Virus record (IMG/VR): IMGVR_UViG_3300031566_000009
Span: 1-64,000 of that record
DNA length: 64,000 nt
Source: a virus
Reading direction: 5' to 3' (one strand)
A model generated the notes under the pieces. It was not told where the DNA came from. It searched no databases and saw only the letters and a program-made list of their open reading frames with translations. Numbering within the stretch: the first letter of the stretch is position 1; each line of letters begins with the position of its first letter. The position numbers were made by a program, and so were the translations under genes. Shown one piece after another: positions 3,601 to 52,368 of this stretch.

Positions 3601-5289
3601 TTATATTTGGAGACGCTTTTTCAGATCTTCCAAGAATGCTGGACCTAGAACAGCTTTTTGCATGGTGATTTTCTTCGTCAAAATTGCCTCTACCAAATCA
3701 TCTACGGTATTTGGGCAATAGAGGCTTATTACGTGTACTTTTTGAGTCTGGCCGCCTCGGTGTAGTCGATCTTCAGCCTGTGTTTGCTTTTCAGGATTGA
3801 ACCACTTATCTACAAAGATGGCAGTATTCGCTCCGACCAAGTTTAATCCCACACCGCCAGATTGAAGAGTAGCGACCAAGACCCTTACCTCACCTGTGTT
3901 TAATCTGGCCTCTTCCTGGCTTATTTCTTCGGAGGTCATACCACCCCAAATTCGTGTATGAGGAACTTCTGCTTTGGTCAATCGTTCACACATGGCTTCT
4001 ACAGTCTTTCTGAAGGCAGTGAATATAACAATAATGTTATCTGTGCCTAAAACGATGTCCATCGCAGCGTCGAGCTTTGCGCTTTCGTCGGGCAGGTCAA
4101 AGTTCGCAGGTGTGCTTAGGATTTGACGAAGGCGAGTAATCATAGAGATGATGTTCACGGCATAAAGTTTTTTCGTCTCTGAGAGTTCAATGTAGAATCG
4201 TTTTGCCATATCGTCATAGTGCTTCTCTTGTTTCGGCAATAGTTCCAGAGAAATCGTCTGGAATAATTTCTCTGGCAGGAAAGGCATGACCTCCGCTTTA
4301 GTCTTGCGGATCATTCGAGGGGCTAATTCGCGCCTGAGCAACTTGGGGCGTAAAATGCCCTTGATATGTCGAGTACCCCAATAATCTTCTTCGTAGTCCA
4401 CGTATAACTCAAAGAAACGCCAGAAACTCGTATATTGCTCTGGCCACAGGAAATTTAAAAGCGACCACAACTCAGAAGGATCGTTCCCAAAAGGAGTTCC
4501 TGTGAGCAAGCAGCAATTCTGAAAACGTAACTGCTTAGTTAGGAATGCAATTTGAGTCTTTCGATTTCTGATAGTCTGTGCTTCGTCGAGAATGAGCCAG
4601 TCCCACTCGGTTGAGAAGTAGAGGGATCGTTCTCTGAGTGCTCTAATATCGAATTGCTGTGTCTTCCCTCTTTGGCCGATTGACTTAGCCTCGGCACGGA
4701 GTTGGGCATAGTTAGCAATGAGCCATCCACCATCATAGGTTGAAAGTGTATCTCTGCGATCTTTCGTTTCAACCACAGTGGCGGGCTGATCTGGAAACGC
4801 CGTCCAAGAACTTTTTTCATTCTTCCACCAAGTTTTCAAGGAGTTTGGACAGATCACGAGCACCTTGTCATTTTGGGTGCTTTCCTCAATTGCGACAATG
4901 GCTGTGACCGTCTTTCCTGTGCCCATGTCGGATGCTAGGAGAGAACGCTTCGTCTTGACGATGAAATCAGCGGATACCCTCTGGAAGGGCCACAATTTAA
5001 TAGCGTTCGGGTGAAACAAGGAAACATCATCTCTAAGTAATAACTGTACCCTAGAGTTTTCTTCGTCGATTGCTTGTCTATACCATTGTTTTGCATTCTG
5101 ATCGAGAGGGGTTTTGGTCGCCCAATATATAGCCTCACATAGGCGAGCATCCAAGGGGACGACGACGCCTCTATCTGTTCTTTTGACCCCTGTGATCTTT
5201 TGGAGCATATTCCATGTTGGTGTAATAGCAGCCCCAGTAATGAATAATTTTGGAGTATATTTGCTCGTTCGTGGCAGGAGTATTATCAT
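3601..5289 (-). CDS. SNF2-family helicase/annealing ATPase
   Basis: DMGTGKT Walker A, ILDEAQ, LLTGTP, GGVGLNL and QAEDRLHRGGQ motifs. Confidence 0.93.
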   Translation of the reverse strand: MIILLPRTSKYTPKLFITGAAITPTWNMLQKITGVKRTDRGVVVPLDARLCEAIYWATKTPLDQNAKQWYRQAIDEENSRVQLLLRDDVSLFHPNAIKLWPFQRVSADFIVKTKRSLLASDMGTGKTVTAIVAIEESTQNDKVLVICPNSLKTWWKNEKSSWTAFPDQPATVVETKDRRDTLSTYDGGWLIANYAQLRAEAKSIGQRGKTQQFDIRALRERSLYFSTEWDWLILDEAQTIRNRKTQIAFLTKQLRFQNCCLLTGTPFGNDPSELWSLLNFLWPEQYTSFWRFFELYVDYEEDYWGTRHIKGILRPKLLRRELAPRMIRKTKAEVMPFLPEKLFQTISLELLPKQEKHYDDMAKRFYIELSETKKLYAVNIISMITRLRQILSTPANFDLPDESAKLDAAMDIVLGTDNIIVIFTAFRKTVEAMCERLTKAEVPHTRIWGGMTSEEISQEEARLNTGEVRVLVATLQSGGVGLNLVGANTAIFVDKWFNPEKQTQAEDRLHRGGQTQKVHVISLYCPNTVDDLVEAILTKKITMQKAVLGPAFLEDLKKRLQI

Positions 5290-10114: not shown

Positions 10115-10329
10115 GTTGTTTGCTCCTTTGTTAATTCGATATTGGCCCACTCCCTGCAAGAACTCACCAATGTCACCAACAAACTTTTTAGTTTACAACG
10201 TCCCAAAGCAAGTCGATTCTCACCAGGCGTCGTCAAGAGGAATCCCATAAACTGTTCGTAGTAGAGCCGTTGGCAATGAGCGCAGTTACCACAGTTGGCC
10301 TCGATTAGATTTGCCACAGTCTTAGACAT
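10111..10329 (-). CDS. Small Cys-rich hypothetical protein
   Basis: CGNCAHC...GRC...C; overlaps both neighbours in operon style. Confidence 0.6.
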   Translation of the reverse strand: MSKTVANLIEANCGNCAHCQRLYYEQFMGFLLTTPGENRLALGRCKLKSLLVTLVSSCREWANIELTKEQTT

Positions 10330-12583
10330 CCAAGTCCCCCCACCTATCTCCTATTGCTGTCTTGACTAAAAATGGAATTCTTTCCCCACAAACCTCCTTC
10401 GCTGTCTCTTCCATAATCTCTACGATTTCATCGGCTACCCCCTGTGCCACGCTCTCTGGAACTTGACATAAGATTGAGTCGTGGACGGTTAGAAGCACCT
10501 GCCAGCCTTTCTTAGCGATCTTTATCAAGGAAAGCAGGGTAATGTCGCTGGCGATTGATTGTGGAAGGAAATTGATTCCCTGGCGAAAGATGTCTTCCCT
10601 GAACCTCTTGGGAATATATGGGAATCTCCTTCTTCTACCCAGGGATGTTTCTAAGTAGCGTTCTCTGAGTATCTTTTCTTGAATCTCTCCACGCCACTGA
10701 ACGAAACGAGGAATCCTAGTAAAATAGTCTCGAACGATCCGTTCAGCTTGATGATAGTCGACACCAGGAACATTGACGTTAGTCACCATCCGTTTTATTC
10801 CCATACCATAAGCCAAACCAAAGTTACAGGACTTGGCCACTCCTCGCTCCACAGGATTGAAGTCTGGGCCGAAGAGGGTTCTGGCCATCTCATCGTGGAG
10901 ATCGCCTGCTTTTTCATAGGTATTTATTAGGAAGGGATCTCCAGACAAGATGGCCATTACTCGGAACTCCGCTTGAGACAGGTCGGCATAGATCAACTTC
11001 ATTCCTTCGTCGGCGATGAAGAAGTTACGAATGAGCGGAGTATCCGCTGGTTGATTTTGTAGATTCGGATCTTGAGAACTCAATCGTCCAGTGACCGTAC
11101 CATGCAGAAGGAATTGAGTGTGTATCCTATTATCTTGCACACTCTTTGCCAGAGATACGACATACGTAGAATGCAATTTCATCAACTTACGATACTTTAG
11201 CAACTCATCGACGAAAGGATGGCCTTTGAGCCTGTCTAAGACTTCTTTGTCGGTCGAGCGTTTCTTGATCTGTGGCAATCTAAATTCATCGAACAAAATC
11301 TTGGCTAATTGCTGTGTGCTATTTGGATTGAAGTCGTGTTTGACGAGCTTACGAAGATCGATTCGCAATCGCCCAAGCTCCTCTTTTAGTTGCTCATCGA
11401 CTCGATGTACCTCTGCTAAATCGATCCTCGTACCGAAAAGTTCTACATCTGCCAAGACGTTGGCCAGAGGAACCAAGATTCTGTCAAGAACAGCCCGCTG
11501 CTTGGGATACCTCTCAAGGGCTTTCTGAAAATACTCTGTCAACTTGTAGGTATAGAATCCATCCCACATTGTATATTTATAGAGCACATCTTGAGGAAGG
11601 TCGGCGTAACTCTTGCTCTTGGTGAGTTTTACATCCCAATCGAGAGCGTTTAGATAAACTCTGGCAAGATGCTTCAATCCGTGGTTGCCCTTCCTCTTGG
11701 CATTTCGTTCGTCGAGGACGTAATGAGCGAGCATCGTATCGAAATCGAACTCAAAATCAACGCCGAGACATCTCTTCAATACCTTTCGGTCGAACTTGAA
11801 GTTATGTCCTATCCAAATAGTGTCATACTCAGCTAGAGCGGACATAAAGGAAACGTCGTTGGCTAGTTCTTTGGAGAGTACCAAGACTTTATCTTTCGTG
11901 GCTACGACGCCACAGAGTATCTTGCAATTCAATGGATTGAGACTTGAGGTTTCGATGTCAAAGACTGCCATCGGCGAATTCGCCAAAGCATCGAACACCT
12001 GTTTAGGATCATCGACAATCGACCAATCGACTTTTGGATCGCTCAGATCGTATTCACTGCGATAGGATGGGACAAACCAAAACTTGGATTTCTTCAAATC
12101 GAATAAAACATCTCGATAATAATCTAAGTAGCGAAGAACCGCTGCAGGATGTATCGTGGGAAGCACCTCAGTCTGCAATTCCTCAGAAAAACACACTCTA
12201 CCTCTGCGTAAAGTTATTCCCGCCCCCTTTCCCAAAAGAAGGTCGGTAGCGATTGCTCCAAGGGTGATGACCAGTTCAGGCTCGTGCTCTTTGATTTCTT
12301 GGATTAGTCGATTCCGACAACAGTAGGCAGCAGGCACTTTATACTTCATATCAGTAGGAAGACAAAGAGTTGTATTGGTGAGAAAGATGTCATCAAGACC
12401 CACGAGTTTTATCGCCCCGTGCAATAGTTGTCCGCTTGGGCCGACGAAGACCTCTCCCTGGCGATCCTCATCACGACCAGGCCCCTCGCCAACAATGACA
12501 TATCGAGGCTTTTCTAATCCGTGGCCGTAAACTAATTTCTGTCCTTGGAGTGGGCAAGAAACACAATCCATCAATTCAGACAT
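10322..12583 (-). CDS. Family A DNA polymerase with N-terminal family-4 uracil-DNA glycosylase and 3'-5' exonuclease domains
   Basis: UDG: CxxCxL, VGEGPG, FVGPSG, HPAAVL. Exo: FDIET, HNFKFD. PolA: TGRLSS..PNLQN, DLSQAEFR, R..AK..NFG..YG, VHDS. Confidence 0.95.
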   Translation of the reverse strand: MSELMDCVSCPLQGQKLVYGHGLEKPRYVIVGEGPGRDEDRQGEVFVGPSGQLLHGAIKLVGLDDIFLTNTTLCLPTDMKYKVPAAYCCRNRLIQEIKEHEPELVITLGAIATDLLLGKGAGITLRRGRVCFSEELQTEVLPTIHPAAVLRYLDYYRDVLFDLKKSKFWFVPSYRSEYDLSDPKVDWSIVDDPKQVFDALANSPMAVFDIETSSLNPLNCKILCGVVATKDKVLVLSKELANDVSFMSALAEYDTIWIGHNFKFDRKVLKRCLGVDFEFDFDTMLAHYVLDERNAKRKGNHGLKHLARVYLNALDWDVKLTKSKSYADLPQDVLYKYTMWDGFYTYKLTEYFQKALERYPKQRAVLDRILVPLANVLADVELFGTRIDLAEVHRVDEQLKEELGRLRIDLRKLVKHDFNPNSTQQLAKILFDEFRLPQIKKRSTDKEVLDRLKGHPFVDELLKYRKLMKLHSTYVVSLAKSVQDNRIHTQFLLHGTVTGRLSSQDPNLQNQPADTPLIRNFFIADEGMKLIYADLSQAEFRVMAILSGDPFLINTYEKAGDLHDEMARTLFGPDFNPVERGVAKSCNFGLAYGMGIKRMVTNVNVPGVDYHQAERIVRDYFTRIPRFVQWRGEIQEKILRERYLETSLGRRRRFPYIPKRFREDIFRQGINFLPQSIASDITLLSLIKIAKKGWQVLLTVHDSILCQVPESVAQGVADEIVEIMEETAKEVCGERIPFLVKTAIGDRWGDLDV

Positions 12584-13367
12584 AATCTTTTCTCGCATCG
12601 CTCTTAATCCGATAGATGCCTTTTTCCAAGCGTTCTTTGGCGAAAGCATAGTATTCAGGCACTATCTCAAATCCCAAGTAGCGTCTGCCCATCCTTTTAC
12701 TTATTACAGCCACTTGGCCTGATCCAAGGAAAGGATCCATAACTAGATCATCTAATTCACTCGTGTATGCGAGTATCTTCTCAATGATCTCAGTTGGGAG
12801 CTTATTAGGAGTCTTTTTATCACCGCGCCAATACTCACGTTTAATTATCCAGACATCCTCTAGATCACGATATCGTGCGCTACCTCCAGTCTCAGTCTTA
12901 TCATTTTTATTGAATCTTGCACTATTGAAAAATTTGCGCTTCTTGTCATTTTTACAGAGGAAAAGACAATGATAATGAGACGAAATAAATTTTCTCTTAC
13001 AAACAACGCCAAATTGATATTTCCATATAATATGATTAATAATAGTGAAACCTACATCATCTACAGCAACTAAAATATCTTTGAGATTAGTCCATCCCGA
13101 AAAAATGAATACACTTCCCGAATCTTTCAAGAGTCGATATACCTCTGTCAACCATCTTCGAGAGAAATCCAAATATTGACAAGCCTTAATTTCTTCATAT
13201 CCTTCCATTACGTGAGACTGCGTGCGATTATAAGCCGAATGATGCGGTACTAAATTAATGCCAAACGGGGGATCTGTAATAACGAGATCGATACTCTCTG
13301 CTGGAAAGAGTTTCATACCTTCCACACAATCATCATTAAAGATTCTACAACTAGGCATAATCCTCAT
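12576..13367 (-). CDS. N6A/N4C DNA methyltransferase (beta class)
   Basis: ITDPPF followed by DPFLGSG. Confidence 0.92.
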   Translation of the reverse strand: MRIMPSCRIFNDDCVEGMKLFPAESIDLVITDPPFGINLVPHHSAYNRTQSHVMEGYEEIKACQYLDFSRRWLTEVYRLLKDSGSVFIFSGWTNLKDILVAVDDVGFTIINHIIWKYQFGVVCKRKFISSHYHCLFLCKNDKKRKFFNSARFNKNDKTETGGSARYRDLEDVWIIKREYWRGDKKTPNKLPTEIIEKILAYTSELDDLVMDPFLGSGQVAVISKRMGRRYLGFEIVPEYYAFAKERLEKGIYRIKSDARKDYV

Positions 13368-21437: not shown

Positions 21438-21815
21438 CTATTTCCCCTGTAACATATTAATCAGTCGCTGCATCGCATAGTATTCAGGAACGGATAGATA
21501 AGAAACTGCGGAGGTAATCAAGATGGCGAACAAGACCGCAAATAGAGCAAAAAGGAAAAGGCCAGTTGCTACGAAGTCATTTGCAGAATTCGTCTCCCTG
21601 CAATGCTCACGATCACATTTCCTTTGAAGACCAAGCCCATGAAAACCTACTTTGAGAGAAACCAATGCTCCTAGAAAGGTAACTACAGCCCAAACTAGAC
21701 AAGTGTAGCCTTGAACGATGATATTACGCACTGTGATGATCCACACTTGTTGAGCAGCGGGAGAAATCATTTGACCGATTCGCTCTAGCAAAGAAACTAC
21801 CCCTTCAGGGTTCAT
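21438..21815 (-). CDS. Two-helix membrane protein translationally coupled to Ro60
   Basis: ATG overlaps the Ro60 stop; two hydrophobic segments. Confidence 0.7.
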   Translation of the reverse strand: MNPEGVVSLLERIGQMISPAAQQVWIITVRNIIVQGYTCLVWAVVTFLGALVSLKVGFHGLGLQRKCDREHCRETNSANDFVATGLFLFALFAVLFAILITSAVSYLSVPEYYAMQRLINMLQGK

Positions 21816-23497
21816 CACGCCTCCTTTGTTGGTTCCTCTATAAACTGCTGGATGACCTGCGGACAAGCGGAATCAAAACCTACCACATCTAGCATTCCAA
21901 CATCATTTGGATCGGCGATGGTAAAGCCCTCACTGGTCATACCCACGGTGATTAGTTTTGCTGGGATTCCAGTTTCACGGCGGTATTGCTTCAACGCCTG
22001 CACTGGATGAATATCCCCAGCCCAAGTTTCGTTGTCTGTGTAGACGATGAAACAATCTGCGGGAACGACATCGCGCTTTTGCTGCACCTGCGGTTGCAGT
22101 TGGCGACTCCAATAACGAGGGTAACGAGTACAATAAACATCTAAACCTAAAGCCCACAGCATAGGCAATGCACAGTCAGTGCCTCCAAAGGCAAGCCCGC
22201 CAAACTTCCTGACTACATCGTCGAGACGCTCTCGCGGTGAGACCTCGATAGGAACCATCGTATCAGAGAAGGCCACCACTGTATAGTTTGGCTCGGTTCG
22301 AGCAGTTACCATAGCCATAGCTGCTGCTGCCTCACGTACCGTCAGTGGACTATCGCCCATAGAAGAGGTCATACTTCCAGAGACATCCACGGCCAAGACG
22401 AAACGTTTCCCAGTTGGCTTTACGTTTTGGAAACTCTCATAGAAGGCAGCATCGAGAGCATCCACAACTTGCGAGACTGGTTGCCACTTCAGATTTCCTC
22501 TAGCCCCGTGGCCTGCAGCATAGGTGCGCATTCCCAATAGGATAGTAAATGGGTGCAATCTGGAACGGCTTAGAGCTTCAACATCAGAGAATCTCTGCAC
22601 TACATACTTTGATGTTTCACTAAGGGGGGCGAGTAGTCCAATGTCACTCAACCTACCAAGGTTACGCATCAATGCCCAAAGGGGAGTATTAGGCAACAAG
22701 ACTTCCCAAACCTTTGGGGAGCGCAACCACTTGGTATCAAGAGCTTCCCAAGGCAACTTACAATCGCTAACCAGCCGCACGATCTCCTTCGCATCATCAG
22801 TGATGGATGCCAGCTCGTAGCCGACCACGAACTTCTGCCACTGCTCTCCTGTATCTACAACGGTCATCAACCACTCTTTGCCATGACAGATCCAATCCAA
22901 AAGAATTTTATGTGCGGCGGAGTTCGTCTCAGGATGGCTCAATCGCAGCAAGTCACGGTGAGTCCAACCACCTCGCTGTCGATACTTCACCAATTGATAG
23001 GCCAAGTTTTCAGCCGATTTCTCGGTATACCACGAGCCTACAGCATCACGTAGTCCTCTACCCCAGCCACGAAAGGCTTGGATATAAGTAGCAAAGGTGA
23101 ACAAATAGGTTCCTGTGCGGGCTACCCGATTCAACGAATGCAATGCAGCGGATCTCGTCTTTGCATCACCCAGTCCAGCACACATAGCTAAGACGAATAG
23201 GGCAGGATCGTTCTTTGGTGCTCTACCAGACTCGGAGATTTCTACGACCTGCTTTACAACGCGCTCGCCGTCGGCATTGATGCAACGGAGCACCGCCTCT
23301 GCATTTTCCCGCGTCAGCTTATGCTCCTTTACATAATATGTACCACCTTCGGCTCCCAAGATCAGAAACCTGTCGAGACGCTTCCAGTCGTCTACATCCC
23401 AGACATAGCCACCAGCCTCGTTGACGGCCATATCTGCTCTACCTGGAATCGGCTCCTTCTGAGAAGTCTTTCGGACATTGAAGTGTCTTTGATACAT
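21815..23497 (-). CDS. rsr: Ro60/TROVE RNA-binding protein (Rsr ortholog) with vWA domain
   Basis: NEAGGY, RLDRFLILGAEGGTYY, GWGRGLR, KYRQRGGWTHRDLLRLSHP, MIDAS DVSGSM, GGTDCALPM, YTDNETW, LDVVGFD; AAAGGAGG RBS. Confidence 0.97.
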   Translation of the reverse strand: MYQRHFNVRKTSQKEPIPGRADMAVNEAGGYVWDVDDWKRLDRFLILGAEGGTYYVKEHKLTRENAEAVLRCINADGERVVKQVVEISESGRAPKNDPALFVLAMCAGLGDAKTRSAALHSLNRVARTGTYLFTFATYIQAFRGWGRGLRDAVGSWYTEKSAENLAYQLVKYRQRGGWTHRDLLRLSHPETNSAAHKILLDWICHGKEWLMTVVDTGEQWQKFVVGYELASITDDAKEIVRLVSDCKLPWEALDTKWLRSPKVWEVLLPNTPLWALMRNLGRLSDIGLLAPLSETSKYVVQRFSDVEALSRSRLHPFTILLGMRTYAAGHGARGNLKWQPVSQVVDALDAAFYESFQNVKPTGKRFVLAVDVSGSMTSSMGDSPLTVREAAAAMAMVTARTEPNYTVVAFSDTMVPIEVSPRERLDDVVRKFGGLAFGGTDCALPMLWALGLDVYCTRYPRYWSRQLQPQVQQKRDVVPADCFIVYTDNETWAGDIHPVQALKQYRRETGIPAKLITVGMTSEGFTIADPNDVGMLDVVGFDSACPQVIQQFIEEPTKEA

Positions 23498-23512
23498 CGA
23501 TCCTCCTTTGAA

Positions 23513-23656
23513 TCGGGCGTGTTATTGCAAGTGGATTTTAGTATGCCAAATTCAGAACGCTTCTTGTACCTTGCCTGCTGTTTGCCTTTGCTGCTTGGAA
23601 AAGAGACGTTATGAATTTTGTCTTTACTTTACGATAACCCACCTACTTCGGCCCGA
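23513..23656 (-). ncRNA. Y RNA-like RNA 3 (~144 nt, long internal hairpin)
   Basis: 5' UCGGGC-C-GAA-GUAGGUGGG-UUAUC pairs with 3' UCCACUUGC-AAUAACAC-GCCCGA; ends just before the Ro60 RBS. Confidence 0.85.
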
Positions 23657-23659
23657 ATT

Positions 23660-23781
23660 GGTTGGGGGCTGGACTCGAACCAGCGACCTCTTCCTTAACA
23701 TGGATAACCGTCGAACCTCGACCCTTGCAGATATGTTATGCCCAACGGGTTTAGTGCTCTACCAACTGAGCTACCCCAACC
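23660..23781 (-). ncRNA. tRNA-Y RNA chimera (RNA 2): tRNA body with a permuted Ro60-binding stem replacing the anticodon arm
   Basis: Acceptor GUUGGGG/CCCCAAC, D arm GCUC-AGUUGGUA-GAGC, T arm GCUGG-UUCGAGU-CCAGC; insert CCGUUGGGC-AUAACAU-AUCU-GCAA-GGGU-C-GAG-GUUCGACGG-UUAUC. Confidence 0.85.
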
Positions 23782-23786
23782 ACGAC

Positions 23787-23847
23787 GGTGGACGTGTCTT
23801 TGTTCGTGGGATCTTCCTATATGATAACCCATAAACTCCGGCCCACC
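23787..23847 (-). ncRNA. Y RNA-like RNA 1 (minimal, ~61 nt)
   Basis: 5' GGUGGGC-C-GGA-GUUUAUGGG-UUAUC pairs with 3' CCCACGAAC-AAAGACAC-GUCCACC; starts about 8 nt after a -10 box. Confidence 0.85.
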
Positions 23848-23855
23848 TGAACCAT

Positions 23856-23884
23856 ATAGTAGCACAATGTCAACGATTTGTCAA
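23856..23884 (-). promoter_or_regulatory. Sigma70-type promoter for the Y RNA-Ro60 operon
   Basis: TTGACA-17 bp-TACTAT with extended -10 TG. Confidence 0.85.
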
Positions 23885-24484
23885 ATTCGCCAAATGCTCC
23901 TCAAGTCTCTTTTCAGCCTTAGCATAAGTCTCATCAGATGATTCAATACCGATGAAGGATCGATCTGTATCAAGACAAGAAATACCCACAGTGCCAGCAC
24001 CCATCAAGGGATCGAGAACGACGCCATCTGGAGGAACAAATCGTATACAATACTGCGCCCAAGATAAACTCTGTTGCCAATGATGCAATCCCTTCTCTGG
24101 TGAAGGGCATTCAAAACCATCGGTGACGAAACCTCTTCCCTGTGGCCAAGCCTCCTTAACCCACCAAACCACAGGCTTCCACAAGACTTCCATACCCATC
24201 GCCATTCTAGGATGTGGCCCTTTGGCTTGCCACATACAAAGTATCCAACGATACTTTAGATGCTTTCCTACCGCTTCCAGAATCGTTGGCAGTGCATAAT
24301 GAGGAGTGATAGCGATAAAACTACCACCCCGTTTGAGGATTCGTTTGGCTTCTGTTGCTATAGCCTCATAAAGATAGAGAAACTTCTTTGGATATGGAGG
24401 ATCTGTGATTATGGCGTCGATAGAGTCACTGGAGAAATCTCGTAGAATTTCCAAGCAGTCTCCTTTATAGAGTTTTATTGTCAT
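23870..24484 (-). CDS. N6A/N4C DNA methyltransferase (beta class, compact)
   Basis: GDCLE, ITDPPY and LDPLMGAGT motifs. Confidence 0.88.
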   Translation of the reverse strand: MTIKLYKGDCLEILRDFSSDSIDAIITDPPYPKKFLYLYEAIATEAKRILKRGGSFIAITPHYALPTILEAVGKHLKYRWILCMWQAKGPHPRMAMGMEVLWKPVVWWVKEAWPQGRGFVTDGFECPSPEKGLHHWQQSLSWAQYCIRFVPPDGVVLDPLMGAGTVGISCLDTDRSFIGIESSDETYAKAEKRLEEHLANLTNR

Positions 24485-24894
24485 TTCAATCCCTCCAAAC
24501 ATTCCTTCGCAAACCGATAATTAGTGCTCTCCTGTGCAAAGCTCCTCATAACTTCTTTGAGCAACGACGTATCCTTGATACAACTAATCGCAACCTGTCT
24601 AACCTGCCAATCATCGTCGGTAAATATGACTTCCATCAAGGTTTCCTTGTCTCGAATGAACATCAAAGACGCCCTTCGGAGGTATGAATCGGGATCTCCT
24701 AAGACGATCTTGGTCGCAAGCTCTGGATCGTCTAATTCGATTAGTGCTCTGCCTCGTGCTTGGCGAGTCTGCTTCTGACTACACGCCAAACCTCTCAGAG
24801 CATCTTGTCTCCTGATGTTTCGCATAGCTGCTCGCACAGCACAAGGCTTGCAGAAATCGACGAATTCCTTGCCACAGGTTTTACAGAGTTTCAT
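24481..24894 (-). CDS. Zn-ribbon plus HEAT-like repeat protein
   Basis: CKTC...CKPC then D.D..(L/V)R..A helical repeats. Confidence 0.55.
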   Translation of the reverse strand: MKLCKTCGKEFVDFCKPCAVRAAMRNIRRQDALRGLACSQKQTRQARGRALIELDDPELATKIVLGDPDSYLRRASLMFIRDKETLMEVIFTDDDWQVRQVAISCIKDTSLLKEVMRSFAQESTNYRFAKECLEGLK

Positions 24895-49893: not shown

Positions 49894-52368
49894 ATGACTG
49901 ATAATCCAAAGGAACAGGCTATCCTATCGATTCAGGATAGGGCGGATTTAAAGATAGAAGAGGAGTCTCCACTTATTTTTTATCTCGCCCAACTTGCCGA
50001 CGAGATTCCTATAAAACGTGGACTTTCTCGTGATAAGGCGTTGGACAAATTTTGGCCCACCGAATCTGTGCTTGCGGGCGCAATTTATTCTATGTGCGCC
50101 AAAGTCGCCGCACTCGATTTTAGGCTCAAGGGTCGCACCAAAGCCGTTGCTAGATATGCCAACGTCTTCCAAGCCGCTGACTTTGGCGCAGGTTGGGTAA
50201 ATTTTATTCAACGGGTCGTTCAAGACATTTTGTGCCTAGCAGCCACGACGAGAGTTCAATTAGGTGGGGATCGCCGAGGCCAGACGAAGGAGATTCGTGA
50301 CATCGTTAAGGACCGAGATCCTGGCCCCGTGTTGTCTGTAGATATTGATGGCAACCTCATAGAGCGTCATGTTGTGGAGTGGCACAAGACTCCCTTGGGG
50401 CCTCGTAGGTGGTGGTGGATCTCCTTAAAAGAAGCGTCTGGGCACAGTCGGGAAAAAGCTGGTGGGATATTCATGACGGAGGACCACCCCGTACTTACTA
50501 GCGATGGTTGGAAGCTGGCAAGAGACATTGAGTTGGGAGATCGAGTAGCCACAGGCGATCCCGTCCCTAACCAGAAGCAGGCTGAACTACTAGCTGGCAG
50601 TCTACTGGGGGATCTTTGCATTCAGCCTATTAGGAAGCGAGCTACGCTGCGTCTTTGCCACAGTGTTGCGCAAGAGGCGTGGTTGGACTTGAAACTGAGT
50701 GCCTTAGCTGGATTTGGATGGACGGGACGGGCTACTTATACCAGTTCCTATCAAGGGTACTCTAGTGAGAGTGTCCAGGTAGCATCTCTGGGATCGCTGG
50801 AACTGGAAAGATGGCGACAGCTTTGGTATCCACAGGGGAAGAAGGTAGTACCTCGTGCTCTCGTTGAGAGCCTCTTTTCTCCAAGGCTTCTAGCCGCATG
50901 GTATTGCGACGACGGGAGCCTCTGTGGACCTAGACACAGAACTACTGGTGAAAGCATCGCGCCTCACGCTGTGCTGTATACCTGCGGTTTCTTGGAGGAT
51001 GATGTTCGGTGGCTTGTGGATTTACTGAACTGTAAGGGATATTCCTGCCGACTGCGTTTTCAGCCTTATAGAGGTTCAGACGACGAAAGGGATGACTATC
51101 CTATAATTTACATTACACCAAAGGGGTTGCAGCGCCTCGTGGCCGATATAGGCTCCTACGTACCTCCAGAGCTACGGTACAAGCTCCCCAAGGGCGCTCC
51201 AGAATACGACGCCAGCCTGTGGGAGCTTGGAAGAGCTACGGTATATTATGACACCGTTGTAGCCTCTATGGAAAGGGACTACAAGGCTGGTTACAAAAAG
51301 GCTAAGACGACTTTTCATATTGGCGTAGAGGAGACAGGAAATTTCGTAGCGGCCAACGTGGTTGTACACAATACTCAGGACAATGGAGCTTTCGTTGAAC
51401 TTCTCCGTCCAAAAGGCGCATCTCCACAATCACCTGTGCGTGGGATAGCTCATTTAGATTCACAGAGAATTCAACGAACGGGAAATCCCGAAATACCTTA
51501 CTTATATTATTCAAATAAAGATAGTGCTTGGCATCGTCTTCGATGGTATCAAGTCCTTGCCCTTACCGACCAACCCAGTCCGAGAGAGGAAGACAAGGGA
51601 CGTGGTTATTGCGCCGTAAGTCGTGTCTTGGAGTTTGCAAAACTACTCAGGGCTGTGCAGACCTATCAGTCGCAGAAATTGAGTGGACAGAGAATACCTG
51701 CACTTCTCTTCGTTCAAGGAATGCGCAGTAACGCCATTGCCGATGCCATCGAGAAGGCTAGAGAAGAGACGAGAGCTTCAGGAAGAAGTCTTTACATAAC
51801 TCCTATTGTCATTTCTTCCCACGACTCACAAAGGCCCTTGCGGGTACAATTAGTCGAATTAGCAGGTCTTCCAGATGGCTTCAAATATGACGAATTGATG
51901 AAGTGGTACATCGGCGTTCTAGCCCTTGGAATGGGCACTGACTATATTGAATTCTTTCCTATGCCTGGAGGCAACCTTGGATCTGCCCAGCAAACTACAG
52001 AGATGTCTTCGCGGTCTCGTGGAAAAGGACCAGGACTTATCCTTCAGCAATTTGAATTTGGCTTTAATTGGTATGTTCTTCCCTCCACTGTGGAGTTTCA
52101 GTTCGCCAGCACAGATCCTACGGCAGAGCGTGAACGAGTGGAACTCGGCGTCTGGCGTGCTCGAAGACGCGGTGAAATGGTAAAGTCTGGTGAAATTACT
52201 GGAGAGCAAGCATTGCGTATCGCCATCCAAGAAGGGGATGCACCAGAAGATTTCATATCAGGCGGTGAAGAAGCTGCTGAAGACCGTGTGGATATGCTCG
52301 TAAAGAGTTTGCAAGATATAAAAAACGCGTATAATAAAGTGGAAAGAATATTAGGCCGTTTAAGATGA
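49894..52368 (+). CDS. Portal protein interrupted by an intein
   Basis: Position between terL and the head genes; extein reads DIL|TQDNGAFVEL...HLDS; about 444 aa after splicing. Confidence 0.8.
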   Translation: MTDNPKEQAILSIQDRADLKIEEESPLIFYLAQLADEIPIKRGLSRDKALDKFWPTESVLAGAIYSMCAKVAALDFRLKGRTKAVARYANVFQAADFGAGWVNFIQRVVQDILCLAATTRVQLGGDRRGQTKEIRDIVKDRDPGPVLSVDIDGNLIERHVVEWHKTPLGPRRWWWISLKEASGHSREKAGGIFMTEDHPVLTSDGWKLARDIELGDRVATGDPVPNQKQAELLAGSLLGDLCIQPIRKRATLRLCHSVAQEAWLDLKLSALAGFGWTGRATYTSSYQGYSSESVQVASLGSLELERWRQLWYPQGKKVVPRALVESLFSPRLLAAWYCDDGSLCGPRHRTTGESIAPHAVLYTCGFLEDDVRWLVDLLNCKGYSCRLRFQPYRGSDDERDDYPIIYITPKGLQRLVADIGSYVPPELRYKLPKGAPEYDASLWELGRATVYYDTVVASMERDYKAGYKKAKTTFHIGVEETGNFVAANVVVHNTQDNGAFVELLRPKGASPQSPVRGIAHLDSQRIQRTGNPEIPYLYYSNKDSAWHRLRWYQVLALTDQPSPREEDKGRGYCAVSRVLEFAKLLRAVQTYQSQKLSGQRIPALLFVQGMRSNAIADAIEKAREETRASGRSLYITPIVISSHDSQRPLRVQLVELAGLPDGFKYDELMKWYIGVLALGMGTDYIEFFPMPGGNLGSAQQTTEMSSRSRGKGPGLILQQFEFGFNWYVLPSTVEFQFASTDPTAERERVELGVWRARRRGEMVKSGEITGEQALRIAIQEGDAPEDFISGGEEAAEDRVDMLVKSLQDIKNAYNKVERILGRLR
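50233..51372 (+). mobile_element. Intein with LAGLIDADG homing endonuclease (380 aa)
   Basis: Starts CLAATT, block B TEDHPVLT, LAGSLLGD and LAAWYCDDGS, ends NFVAANVVVHN with +1 Thr. Confidence 0.93.

What the first reader, a model, noticed from the sequence alone, without database searches (positions are those of the whole stretch)
23660..23781. tRNA with its anticodon arm replaced by a circularly permuted Ro60-binding stem
Seen: perfect acceptor stem (GUUGGGG/CCCCAAC), U8-A9, D arm GCUC-AGUUGGUA-GAGC, GAGGUC variable segment and T arm GCUGG-UUCGAGU-CCAGC in normal tRNA order, but no anticodon stem. In its place the Y RNA motif appears with strand order reversed (3' strand first) and the usual open end sealed by a GCAA tetraloop. 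Known: in YrlA the Ro stem holds the free ends and the tRNA-like part is the permuted one with a closed acceptor stem, so this is the opposite topology. Inference: free acceptor ends could be processed by RNase P and 3' nucleases, which would also release the two flanking Y RNAs from the polycistron, and could receive CCA. A possible G-1:C73 pair is the tRNA-His identity element, so aminoacylation is conceivable. CCA is not encoded in register. I do not know of a description of this topology but cannot exclude one.
Basis: partly seen in the sequence, partly recalled or inferred. Interest (0 to 1): 0.92.

Follow-up and report, generated by a model that had tools for sequence, protein, structure and literature searches.

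The report
tRNA-shaped Y RNA beside phage Ro60
A soil phage encodes, just upstream of its Ro60 gene, a small RNA built like a complete tRNA in which the place of the anticodon arm is taken by a hairpin carrying the Ro60 docking site, which is the known bacterial YrlA RNA wired the other way round.

Summary
On the minus strand, 23780-23660 has a 7-bp open acceptor stem, U8-A9, D arm, AGGUC variable loop and T arm in normal tRNA order (Rfam tRNA 47.2 bits). A 41-nt hairpin sealed by GCAA lies where the anticodon arm should be. Its two halves align with the 3' and 5' strands of the two flanking Y-RNA-like hairpins, in reversed order. The Ro60 gene starts 163 nt downstream.

It is not a one-off. 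A covariance model finds 87 such elements in 55 of 94 Ro60 loci, all on the Ro60 strand. All seven acceptor pairs covary. Standard closed-acceptor YrlA-type elements occur beside other Ro60 genes.

Best reading: a Y RNA, a circular permutation of YrlA, cut from a promoter-Y1-tRNA/Y-Y3-Ro60 transcript. Ro60 binding, RNase P cutting and CCA addition are inferred. The G-1:C73 pair is not family-wide (23 of 87).

One correction: a small anticodon-like hairpin (loop AUGUUAA) does sit at the canonical distance from the T arm.

This scan reported the same design on other DNA (e1-5753165). I found no published description, but three key papers and all supplements were unreadable.

The parts
23856..23884 (-). 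Sigma-70-type promoter-like site: TTGACA, 17 nt, TG, TACTAT
   Evidence: 10 of 12 hexamer matches with an extended -10 TG. It was the best of 6 sites in 21500-24600 (shuffles give 3.4 +/- 1.7). It lies about 8 nt upstream of Y1. A consensus match only.
23787..23847 (-). Y1: minimal Y-RNA-like bulged hairpin whose free ends form the Ro-type stem
   Evidence: Fold. Weak match to the nematode stem-bulge (Y-like) RNA family RF01656: 20 bits, E 0.7, below cut-off 38. Its strands align with those of Y3 and of the insert.
23660..23781 (-). tRNA-shaped Y RNA in native tRNA order, including G-1 (23781) and C73 (23660)
   Evidence: Rfam tRNA 47.2 bits. My model R1 gives 99 bits. Family covariation.
23774..23780 (-). 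Acceptor stem, 5' strand GUUGGGG
   Evidence: Pairs 7 of 7 with 23667-23661. All 7 pairs covary in 87 relatives, 98.7% of cells paired.
23756..23771 (-). D arm GCUC-AGUUGGUA-GAGC, preceded by U8-A9 (23773-23772)
   Evidence: UA at positions 8-9 in 80 of 87 relatives. T8, G10, A14 and A21 are invariant in A1.
23708..23748 (-). Ro60-site hairpin: 3'-strand-like half, GCAA loop (23728-23725), then 5'-strand-like half with GUCGAGG (23722-23716)
   Evidence: Fold. The halves align to the Y1/Y3 strands in reversed order. Its helices covary in relatives: 95.9%, 75.8% and 99.1% of cells paired.
23703..23708 (-). GUUAUC motif shared by all three RNAs of the operon
   Evidence: Invariant. GTT[AC][TC]C is present in 71 of 87 relatives.
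23692..23704 (-). Small hairpin UCC-AUGUUAA-GGA, the counterpart of the YrlA 'V' stem-loop, with an anticodon-loop-like loop
   Evidence: A hairpin at exactly this offset, with 3 inner pairs, U at loop position 2 and a purine at position 6, occurs in 26 of 87 relatives, against 0-8 at 40 other offsets.
23685..23689 (-). Variable loop AGGUC; its C48 can form the Levitt pair with G15
   Evidence: Rfam alignment.
23668..23684 (-). T arm GCUGG-UUCGAGU-CCAGC
   Evidence: The T stem covaries, 99.5% of cells paired.
23661..23667 (-). Acceptor stem, 3' strand CCCCAAC; no CCA follows
   Evidence: CCA is encoded after the discriminator in only 6 of 87 relatives.
23513..23657 (-). Y3: long Y-RNA-like hairpin with GCCGAAG and GGGUUAUC on its 5' strand
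   Evidence: Fold. RF01656 gives 25.1 bits, E 0.032, below the cut-off. Alignments.
23502..23508 (-). Ribosome-binding site AAGGAGG of the Ro60 gene
   Evidence: Read directly; it lies 4 nt before the ATG at 23497.
21815..23497 (-). Ro60 (Rsr) gene, 560 aa
   Evidence: Pfam vWA_Ro60 3e-66 and TROVE 1.1e-43. Relatives at 38-57% identity in 77 viral loci and at least 46% in 80 bacterial loci.

Best explanation
This is a Y RNA of the YrlA kind written in native tRNA order. One promoter drives Y1, the tRNA-shaped RNA, Y3 and then the Ro60 mRNA. The middle RNA folds into a tRNA L-shape through its acceptor, D and T arms and the usual tertiary-contact nucleotides. The helix that stacks under the D arm, where a tRNA has its anticodon stem, carries the bulged Ro60 docking site and is closed by a GCAA loop.

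In space it should look like YrlA. In connectivity it is the circular permutation: the acceptor end is open and the Ro stem is sealed.

Shown: the sequence anatomy, its conservation with covariation, and its fixed association with Ro60 genes on the same strand.

Inferred:
(a) The phage Ro60 binds the hairpin.
(b) Host RNase P and 3' nucleases cut at the acceptor ends as for a tRNA, which also frees Y1 and Y3 and the Ro60 message.
(c) The tRNA body serves as the effector-binding or decoy module, as proposed for YrlA: tethering Ro60 to a tRNA-recognising protein or PNPase, or competing with an anticodon nuclease.
(d) CCA may be added.
For: - Anatomy.
- Ro60 gene 163 nt downstream on the same strand, with an RBS and no terminator-like site between the RNAs and the gene; promoter-like site just upstream of Y1.
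- The insert halves align with the Y1/Y3 strands in reversed order.
- Family: 17 hand-collected elements aligned by MAFFT (not fitted to any structure) show all 7 acceptor pairs with compensatory changes and none broken.
- Model R1 finds 87 elements at E <= 1e-11 in 55 of 94 sources, 87 of 87 on the Ro60 strand.
- 96.2% of pair cells are standard pairs against 74.3% in shuffles and 34-52% when partners are slid; 24 of 27 pairs change on both sides.
- The apical loop of the Ro hairpin measures 3-12 nt in 75 of the 82 elements measured (of 87).
- The window holds a single T arm and D arm, so no closed-acceptor reading across neighbouring units is possible.
- Precedents: YrlA is bound by Rsr and modified by tRNA enzymes; M. 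smegmatis YrlA is cut by RNase P and gains CCA (Chen 2014, passages). The crystal structure puts the Ro-linked stem in the anticodon-stem position (Wang 2018, passages). The decoy idea comes from Hughes 2020 PMC7790460 (passage).
Against: - There is no expression, end-mapping or binding datum.
- The published motif GNCGAA(N)G is met only approximately here (GUCGAGG), and strictly in 24 of 87 relatives.
- Folding energy is not better than shuffles at a convincing level (z -1.56).
- Rfam's YrlA model scores 15 bits against a cut-off of 69. It also gave no gathering-level match in any of the 10 standard-topology loci among the 20 tried, so it is a narrow model.
- Alignment A3 was fitted to the model, which favours its structure.
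- G-1:C73 plus U-2:A74 could lengthen the terminal helix to 9 bp. In some bacterial members the helix runs to about 10 bp. That could shift or hinder RNase P cutting.
- No RtcB or CCA-adding enzyme is found in the virus record, which is 53% complete.
Confidence: 0.75

Rival explanations
1. It is chiefly a processing signal. A tRNA-shaped spacer recruits RNase P and 3' nucleases to cut the polycistronic transcript into Y1, Y3 and the Ro60 mRNA. Its Ro60-type hairpin would be secondary or vestigial.
For: It lies between two Y RNAs with spacers of only a few nucleotides, in one promoter-to-gene unit. Its flanks resemble those of tRNA genes: U-1/A73 or G-1/C73 in most members.
Against: 32 of the 55 sources with a member have a single member, and I did not check whether those are flanked by other Y RNAs. 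The insert hairpin and its motifs are conserved with covariation, which a mere cutting signal would not need. This reading does not exclude the main one.
Confidence: 0.1
2. It is a working tRNA with an extra arm. The small hairpin UCC-AUGUUAA-GGA would be the true anticodon arm (anticodon GUU), and the Ro60 hairpin an insertion between positions 26 and 27. The RNA would be charged and used, or sensed, in translation.
For: The hairpin lies exactly one 5-nt variable loop before the T arm and has an anticodon-loop-like Y/A-U-NNN-A-A loop. The same holds in 26 of 87 relatives, with varied middle triplets. Free acceptor ends are present.
Against: The stem has 3 Watson-Crick pairs, one G-U and an A-A mismatch in 5 positions. 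61 of 87 relatives lack such a hairpin, and many have the Ro hairpin enclosed by the anticodon-stem analogue instead. The same hairpin occurs in closed-acceptor elements, which cannot be charged. CCA is not encoded. ARAGORN's call on insert-deleted constructs was no better than on controls. From memory: Asn identity in E. coli needs G73, and here it is C73.
Confidence: 0.05
3. It is a tRNA gene interrupted by an intervening sequence that is spliced out, or a dead tRNA gene disrupted by insertion of a Y RNA.
For: Rfam's tRNA model reads it as a tRNA with a 61-nt insertion at the anticodon.
Against: From memory: bacterial and phage tRNA introns are group I introns of more than 200 nt, and no splicing endonuclease motif is evident. 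The insert is conserved in structure and motif across 87 elements that share little primary sequence, always beside Ro60. That argues against decay and against a mobile insertion. After removal of the hairpin the remaining anticodon arm is poor.
Confidence: 0.04

Closest known systems
YrlA (Y RNA-like A) of bacteria and mycobacteriophages; Rfam RF02553; Chen et al. 2014 PMC4201824; structure in Wang et al. 2018, bioRxiv 10.1101/312249
   Same: Encoded next to Ro60 on the same strand. Has a Ro-site helix with a GNCGA-type motif followed by GUUAUC-like nucleotides, a CUAAA-like segment after the D arm, a tRNA-like D arm, T arm, acceptor-like stem and variable region, and often a small 'V' hairpin before the T arm.
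   Different: The connectivity differs. In YrlA the RNA ends form the Ro stem, the T arm precedes the D arm, and the acceptor-like stem is a closed hairpin. Here the ends form a 7-bp acceptor stem, the order is D then T, and the Ro stem is closed by a tetraloop. The Rfam model does not detect it (15 bits).
[quoted passage not shown] 2014, passages seen)
   Same: A Ro60-associated tRNA mimic with a 7-bp acceptor stem, an open acceptor end and possibly CCA.
   Different: There the open end arises by cutting a closed loop, which leaves two RNA pieces held by base pairing. Here the open end is encoded and the molecule stays one piece.
D. radiodurans Yrn1 (Chen et al. 2014, passages seen)
   Same: A second published arrangement in which the order of T-like and D-like arms relative to the 5' end differs from YrlA.
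   Different: In Yrn1 the Ro stem with the free ends takes the place of the acceptor stem, and a stem-loop takes the anticodon position. Here it is the reverse.
Simple Y RNAs: YrlB, phage phiLo Yrl1/Yrl2 (PMC12135203, passages), metazoan Y RNAs and nematode stem-bulge RNAs (RF01656)
   Same: A bulged Ro-site helix. The flanking Y1 and Y3 are of this simple kind and share their strands with the insert.
   Different: They have no tRNA body, and the Ro helix holds the free ends.
b7a-tRNA of Burroughs and Aravind 2016, known to me only through its citation in Wang et al. 2018
   Same: A predicted tRNA-like RNA in native tRNA form, said to be encoded occasionally beside Rsr.
   Different: It is described there as strongly resembling an authentic tRNA and as the partner of a Band-7 protein. 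I could not read the paper, so I cannot say whether any of its examples carry a Ro-site hairpin.

Membership tests
YrlA-type Y RNA (Chen et al. 2014) | Encoded within about 4 kb of a Ro60/Rsr gene on the same strand | tested here: met
   The element ends 163 nt before the Ro60 start codon, on the same strand. 87 of 87 relatives lie on the Ro60 strand.
YrlA-type Y RNA (Chen et al. 2014) | GNCGAA(N0-1)G motif in the Ro60-binding module | tested here: inconclusive
   The window has GUCGAGG, one departure. The strict motif is found in 24 of 87 relatives and the looser GG[GCU]YC[GA] in 82 of 87. Y3 has GCCGAAG.
YrlA-type Y RNA (Chen et al. 2014) | tRNA-like domain with D arm, T arm, acceptor-like stem and the conserved tertiary-contact nucleotides | tested here: met
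   Rfam tRNA 47.2 bits over all 71 model positions. U8, A14, G18-G19, A21, the G15/C48 pair, G53, U54-U55, A58 and C61 are all present.
YrlA-type Y RNA (Chen et al. 2014) | Topology: 5' and 3' ends form the Ro stem, the T arm lies 5' of the D arm, and the acceptor-like stem is closed by a loop | tested here: not met
   The opposite holds: D before T, open acceptor, closed Ro stem.
YrlA-type Y RNA (Chen et al. 2014) | Match to Rfam RF02553 at its gathering score | tested here: not met
   15 bits against 69. The model also gave no gathering-level hit in any of 10 standard-topology phage loci, including mycobacteriophage ET08, so this test discriminates poorly.
YrlA-type Y RNA (Chen et al. 2014) | Bound by Ro60/Rsr in vivo | not testable with these tools
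   No RNA-protein binding tool is available.
tRNA (RF00005) | Acceptor, D and T arms with a variable loop in canonical order | tested here: met
   47.2 bits, above the cut-off of 29.
tRNA (RF00005) | A 5-bp anticodon stem with a 7-nt loop directly after position 26, and a total length of about 70-95 nt | tested here: not met
   The RNA is 121 nt. Position 26 is followed by the 41-nt Ro hairpin. The small hairpin has 3 Watson-Crick pairs, a G-U and an A-A. ARAGORN calls nothing.
tRNA (RF00005) | CCA end and aminoacylation | not testable with these tools
   CCA is not encoded. It is encoded in 6 of 87 relatives.
Simple Y RNA (metazoan Y, sbRNA RF01656, YrlB) | Ro-site helix formed by the RNA's own 5' and 3' ends | tested here: not met
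   In the tRNA-shaped element the helix is internal and its strand order is reversed. The feature is met by the flanking Y1 and Y3.

The most novel reading that the evidence does not exclude
The mature RNA is handled by the host as a real tRNA. RNase P cuts it, it receives CCA, and a synthetase or a tRNA-directed defence nuclease recognises it. The phage Ro60 particle would thus be brought to, or would jam, the host's tRNA-handling machinery. The anticodon-like side hairpin would then be a bait for anticodon nucleases. In addition, this native-order form may be the ancestral state: closed-acceptor YrlA could arise when two such units lie in tandem and the reading register shifts by half a unit.
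Probability: 0.12. Interest if true: 0.85.

Novelty: new variant of a known kind. Interest (0 to 1): 0.62.

Why it matters
Y RNAs are the RNA partners of Ro60, a conserved RNA-surveillance protein and human autoantigen. What the tRNA-like half of bacterial Y RNAs does, and where it came from, are open questions.

A second wiring of the same parts shows that selection acts on the three-dimensional combination of tRNA body and Ro60 site, not on the order in which it is written. This wiring is common beside Ro60 genes of Myxococcota, Gemmatimonadota, Armatimonadota and Chloroflexota and in uncultured phages.

It may explain why Chen et al. 2014 found few YrlA RNAs in some groups, such as delta-proteobacteria.

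It supplies natural single-piece molecules with an open acceptor end, on which RNase P cutting, CCA addition and charging can be tested.

Tandem pairs of such units (L010, L015, L070, L033, L024, L011) are the kind of dimeric tRNA-like transcript from which YrlA has been proposed to derive (Wang 2018 Discussion).

These elements escape ARAGORN. Rfam reports them, if at all, only as long odd tRNAs, so they are probably unannotated in many genomes.

Tried and rejected
- ARAGORN on the window: 0 genes.
- blastn of 23480-23900 against GenBank phages: no match.
- Exact 24-base pattern in IMG/VR: no match.
- Rfam at E <= 10 around the locus: apart from tRNA, only weak sbRNA hits and chance-level hits.
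- ARAGORN on constructs with the Ro hairpin removed: 79 of 85 were called, but so were 73 and 68 of 85 controls carrying unrelated 17-nt pieces. The test does not discriminate and I draw nothing from it.
- -1:73 control using ARAGORN coordinates: the registers were inconsistent, so I discarded it and replaced it with a same-register descriptor. This removed most of the apparent excess of -1:73 pairing.
- Expression: no RNA holder listed. Nine DNA runs were listed, mostly soil metagenomes.
- RtcB (PF01139) and CCA-adding enzyme (PF01743): no match in the 82-kb virus record, which is 53% complete.
- GenBank phages: 0 of 12 Ro60 loci sampled out of 368 matching records have a native-order element with a 7/7 acceptor and a D arm. 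Several have closed-acceptor elements. prophiT37-1 has a tandem array that can be read either way.
- L078 scored 63.8 bits. I left it out because its units also form 7/7 closed-acceptor hairpins.
- Ro60 tree: 20 of 162 loci were dropped for fewer than 400 aligned residues; 72 of 142 rows carried no label and were not counted.

Literature. Searches found no description of a native-order tRNA/Y chimera. Not held, so not read: Sim et al. 2020 (PMC10870794); Sim and Wolin 2018 (PMC6047535); Burroughs and Aravind 2016. Supplemental Tables S1/S2 and Fig. S1 of Chen 2014 could list such elements.
Full report
1. WHAT IS THERE

The element lies on the minus strand. Read 5' to 3' from 23780 to 23660 it has, in order:
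- a 7-bp acceptor stem (GUUGGGG with CCCCAAC);
- U8-A9;
- a D arm with the usual AGUUGGUA loop;
- A26;
- a 61-66-nt insert;
- an AGGUC variable loop;
- a T arm with a UUCGAGU loop;
- discriminator C.

Rfam's tRNA model aligns over all 71 of its positions at 47.2 bits (cut-off 29, E 5.9e-07), with 61 nt where 13 are expected. ARAGORN finds no tRNA in the window. The tRNA model finds no other tRNA in the whole 82-kb virus record.

The minimum-free-energy fold gives the cloverleaf arms, a 9-bp helix (CCGUUGGGC with GUUCGACGG), an internal loop, four more pairs (AUCU with GGGU) and a GCAA loop. It also gives a small hairpin UCC-AUGUUAA-GGA. The energy is not significantly better than shuffles (z -1.56; 14 of 200 shuffles fold as well), so the case rests on comparison, not thermodynamics.

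2. SURROUNDINGS

The next ORF downstream on the same strand (23497-21815, 560 aa) is Ro60: vWA_Ro60 3e-66, TROVE 1.1e-43. An AAGGAGG lies 4 nt before its ATG.

Two bulged hairpins flank the element: Y1 (23847-23787) and Y3 (23657-23513). They give weak, sub-threshold matches to the nematode stem-bulge RNA family RF01656, at 20 and 25.1 bits against a cut-off of 38. From memory, that family is a Y RNA relative.

A promoter-like site (TTGACA, 17 nt, TG, TACTAT) lies at 23884-23856, just upstream of Y1. No terminator-like site lies between the RNAs and Ro60. So the unit reads promoter, Y1, tRNA-shaped RNA, Y3, Ro60.

The rest of the window is phage: terminase, family A DNA polymerase, NrdD, SNF2 helicase and methylases. 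The record is an IMG/VR virus, 53% complete. Near-identical DNA occurs in six soil metagenome runs.

3. THE REVERSED STRAND ORDER IS REAL

The second half of the insert (23727-23692) aligns with the 5' strands of Y1 and Y3. There are 18 invariant columns of 38, including GGG.CG..G.GU and GGUUAUC. The first half (23755-23725) aligns with their 3' strands, with 8 invariant columns of 32, including the A-rich AACA segment. The Ro-site helix of the neighbours is therefore present with its 3' strand first, and its normally open end is sealed.

4. IT IS A FAMILY

I fetched 77 IMG/VR loci encoding relatives of this Ro60 (38-57% identity). A simple descriptor picked out elements of the same build. It required a T arm, a 7/7 acceptor and a D arm.

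Seventeen of them were aligned by MAFFT without any structural input. All seven acceptor pairs show compensatory changes (4-10 sequences each) and none is broken. The D, T and Ro-hairpin helices covary as well: 22 of 27 pairs change on both sides.

A covariance model built from this alignment (R1) scores the window element at 99 bits. In one search, 14 of 77 viral loci have a hit of 61 bits or more. Ordinary tRNAs score 25-51 bits.

I then fetched 80 bacterial Ro60 loci, mostly metagenome-assembled genomes of Myxococcota, Gemmatimonadota, Armatimonadota and Chloroflexota, at 46% identity or more. I searched them together with the window and 13 viral loci chosen. Result: 87 hits at E <= 1e-11 in 55 of 94 sources, that is the window, 13 of 13 chosen viral loci and 41 of 80 bacterial loci, all on the Ro60 strand.

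On that alignment 96.2% of pair cells are standard pairs, against 74.3 +/- 0.5% in 500 shuffles and 34-52% with partners slid. 24 of 27 pairs change on both sides. The acceptor helix is 98.7% paired, with up to six pair types per position. This alignment is fitted to the model, which favours it; the unfitted MAFFT result agrees.

Further counts:
- 77 of 87 have a 7/7 acceptor stem and 7 have 6/7.
- 80 of 87 have UA at positions 8-9.
- Median length is 124 nt.
- The Ro hairpin's apical loop measures 3-12 nt in 75 of the 82 elements measured.

5. BOTH WIRINGS EXIST

For every T arm preceded by the Ro 5'-strand motif, I scored two alternatives:
- native order: complementary 7-mer plus D arm 55-170 nt upstream;
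- published YrlA order: acceptor 3' strand, a 3-15-nt loop, complementary 7-mer, D arm.

Loci with native order only, standard order only, both, or neither:
- viral: 11, 25, 0, 41 of 77;
- bacterial: 33, 11, 1, 35 of 80;
- window: native order.

The 12 GenBank phage Ro60 loci I sampled (of 368 matching records, mostly actinophages) have 0 native-order elements. Only cultured actinophages and a few bacteria have been studied experimentally, which fits the published picture.

On a FastTree tree of 142 Ro60 proteins, the two labels (35 and 35 rows) need 10 changes against 23.7 +/- 2.2 in 500 shuffles. The wiring therefore follows Ro60 lineage but has switched several times, or been exchanged. Related rows share labels, so this is description, not a test.

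In tandem arrays some units can be read either way (L078; prophiT37-1). The window has only one T arm and one D arm, so it is unambiguous.

6. COMPARISON WITH WHAT IS KNOWN

Chen et al. 2014 (passages) define YrlA by:
- a GNCGAA(N)G motif near the 5' end;
- T, acceptor-like, D and V elements in that order;
- location within 4 kb of Ro60 on the same strand.

They note that Yrn1 has yet another arrangement, that M. smegmatis YrlA is cut by RNase P and gains CCA, and that few YrlAs were found in delta-proteobacteria and cyanobacteria. [quoted passage not shown]

Wang et al. 2018 (passages and Discussion) show that the Ro-linked stem occupies the anticodon-stem position. They discuss an origin from dimeric tRNA transcripts and the resemblance to circularly permuted tRNA genes.

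The window element has the same parts, down to the CUAAA segment after the D arm and GUUAUC after the Ro 5' strand. These are also seen in standard-order elements such as L021. The connectivity is rotated. It is a circular permutation of YrlA, or equivalently YrlA is a permutation of it.

It fails the topology criterion and the Rfam model (15 bits). That model also misses all 10 standard-order phage loci tried. I therefore file it as a new variant of the YrlA kind, not as a member of RF02553.

7. THE SMALL HAIRPIN

A hairpin lies exactly one 5-nt variable loop before the T arm and has a 7-nt loop, AUGUUAA.

Across the 87 elements, a hairpin at this offset with three inner pairs, U at loop position 2 and a purine at position 6 occurs in 26. 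At 40 other offsets the count is 0-8. The loops read C/U-U-NNN-A-A with varied middle triplets, for example CUGUUAA, CUGAUAA and CUUGGGG.

The same is true of standard-order elements: 15 of 47 distinct at offset 5 and 9 at offset 4. This is therefore the YrlA 'V' stem-loop. It looks like a relic of, or a mimic of, an anticodon arm.

Other family members instead have a 5-bp anticodon-stem analogue that encloses the Ro hairpin (L070b, L010b, L015b, L007, L046). Others lack the hairpin altogether and are 86-97 nt long (L062, L007b, L070c).

Which helix stacks under the D arm in this RNA cannot be told from sequence. By homology with the YrlA crystal structure I take it to be the Ro hairpin.

8. 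ENDS

G-1:C73 is present here. The long fold adds U-2:A74.

In the family, -1:73 is complementary in 62 of 87: U:A 26, G:C 23. Ordinary tRNAs in the same loci, scored in the same register, are complementary in 110 of 188, against 53 of 74 for native-order elements (p 0.065). G:C is commoner in the native-order elements, 18 of 74 against 11 of 188.

The flanks therefore look like tRNA-gene flanks, which fits RNase P processing. The His-like pair is a minority trait. CCA is encoded in 6 of 87 and not here. Some bacterial members extend the terminal helix to about 10 bp, which may change processing.

9. MECHANISM AND CONFIDENCE

- I hold as near certain that this is a conserved structured RNA of this topology tied to Ro60.
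- Likely, about 0.8: it binds the phage Ro60 through the hairpin.
- About 0.6: RNase P and 3' nucleases define its ends and thereby separate Y1, Y3 and the Ro60 mRNA.
- About 0.4: it receives CCA.
- 0.1 or less: it is charged.

The role of the tRNA body is unknown for YrlA itself. Published ideas are tethering of Ro60 to PNPase or to a tRNA-binding effector, and competitive inhibition of an anticodon nuclease (Hughes 2020, passage). The last idea would suit a phage.

10. PRIOR NOTES OF THIS SCAN

- Note e1-5753165 reported two native-order tRNA/Y chimeras upstream of another phage's Ro60 gene and said the design is common beside bacterial Ro60 genes. My searches confirm that claim independently.
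- Notes e1-6124927 and e1-6124917 describe the same operon and its Y RNAs from this genome. The promoter scan and alignments agree with them.

11. LIMITS

- There are no RNA data.
- Three key papers and all supplements could not be read.
- The descriptor is strict: 41 viral and 35 bacterial loci fell in 'none', and many of these surely carry divergent elements.
- The bacterial loci are the 80 best of 315, so the proportions are not a census.

Noticed in passing
window 23692-23704 (-); also L010:1861-1981, L120:4557-4681, L053:1389-1522, L047:1573-1705: The 'V' stem-loop of YrlA-type RNAs, in both wirings, often lies exactly 4-5 nt before the T arm. Its 7-nt loop reads C/U-U-NNN-A-A with a varied middle triplet, like an anticodon loop. 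The offset-5 count is 23 of 64 native-order and 15 of 47 standard-order elements, against 0-1 at most other offsets tried, but 8-9 at offset 4 and 4 (standard-order) at offset 3.
   Followed up: partly
L033:2328-2391: A simple Y-like hairpin next to the two tRNA-shaped elements of this viral locus reaches the gathering score of the nematode stem-bulge RNA family RF01656 (38.5 against 38 bits). The window's Y1 and Y3 match the same family below threshold.
   Followed up: no
L171 (Rhodococcus phage Trina, NC_042040.1) 2098-2306 and 4097-4951: RefSeq annotates a 209-nt pseudo 'tRNA-OTHER' directly upstream of the Ro gene and a Band-7-like lipoprotein directly downstream. My descriptor reads a standard-order element at the T arm 2279-2295. 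The Band-7 neighbour recalls the Band-7/tRNA-like pairing cited in Wang 2018.
   Followed up: partly
L010:1861-2120, L015:270-527, L070:1793-2148, L033:2074-2325, L024:4284-4616, L011:5122-5454: Native-order units often lie in tandem 8-100 nt apart, with similar acceptor sequences. [quoted passage not shown] A half-unit register shift in such an array would give the standard YrlA order.
   Followed up: partly
L062:2245-2330, L007:2254-2350, L070:2053-2148: Short versions of 86-97 nt keep the acceptor, D and T arms and GUUAUC but have lost the V hairpin or most of the Ro hairpin.
   Followed up: no
L093, L094, L111, L123, L126, L147 and others (bacterial loci): In many Myxococcota and Gemmatimonadota members the three bases before and after the 7-bp acceptor stem are also complementary (for example cat...atg, gga...tcc). 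This gives a terminal helix of about 10 bp.
   Followed up: no
window 49894-52368 (+) and 10322-12649 (-): An 824-aa ORF carries a LAGLIDADG endonuclease domain and a sub-threshold intein-splicing match (a possible intein). The family A DNA polymerase has an N-terminal uracil-DNA glycosylase-superfamily domain.
   Followed up: no
whole virus record (82 kb): The tRNA-shaped Y RNA is the only match to the tRNA model in the record. Unlike many Ro60 phages, this one has no tRNA array around its Ro60 gene.
   Followed up: partly
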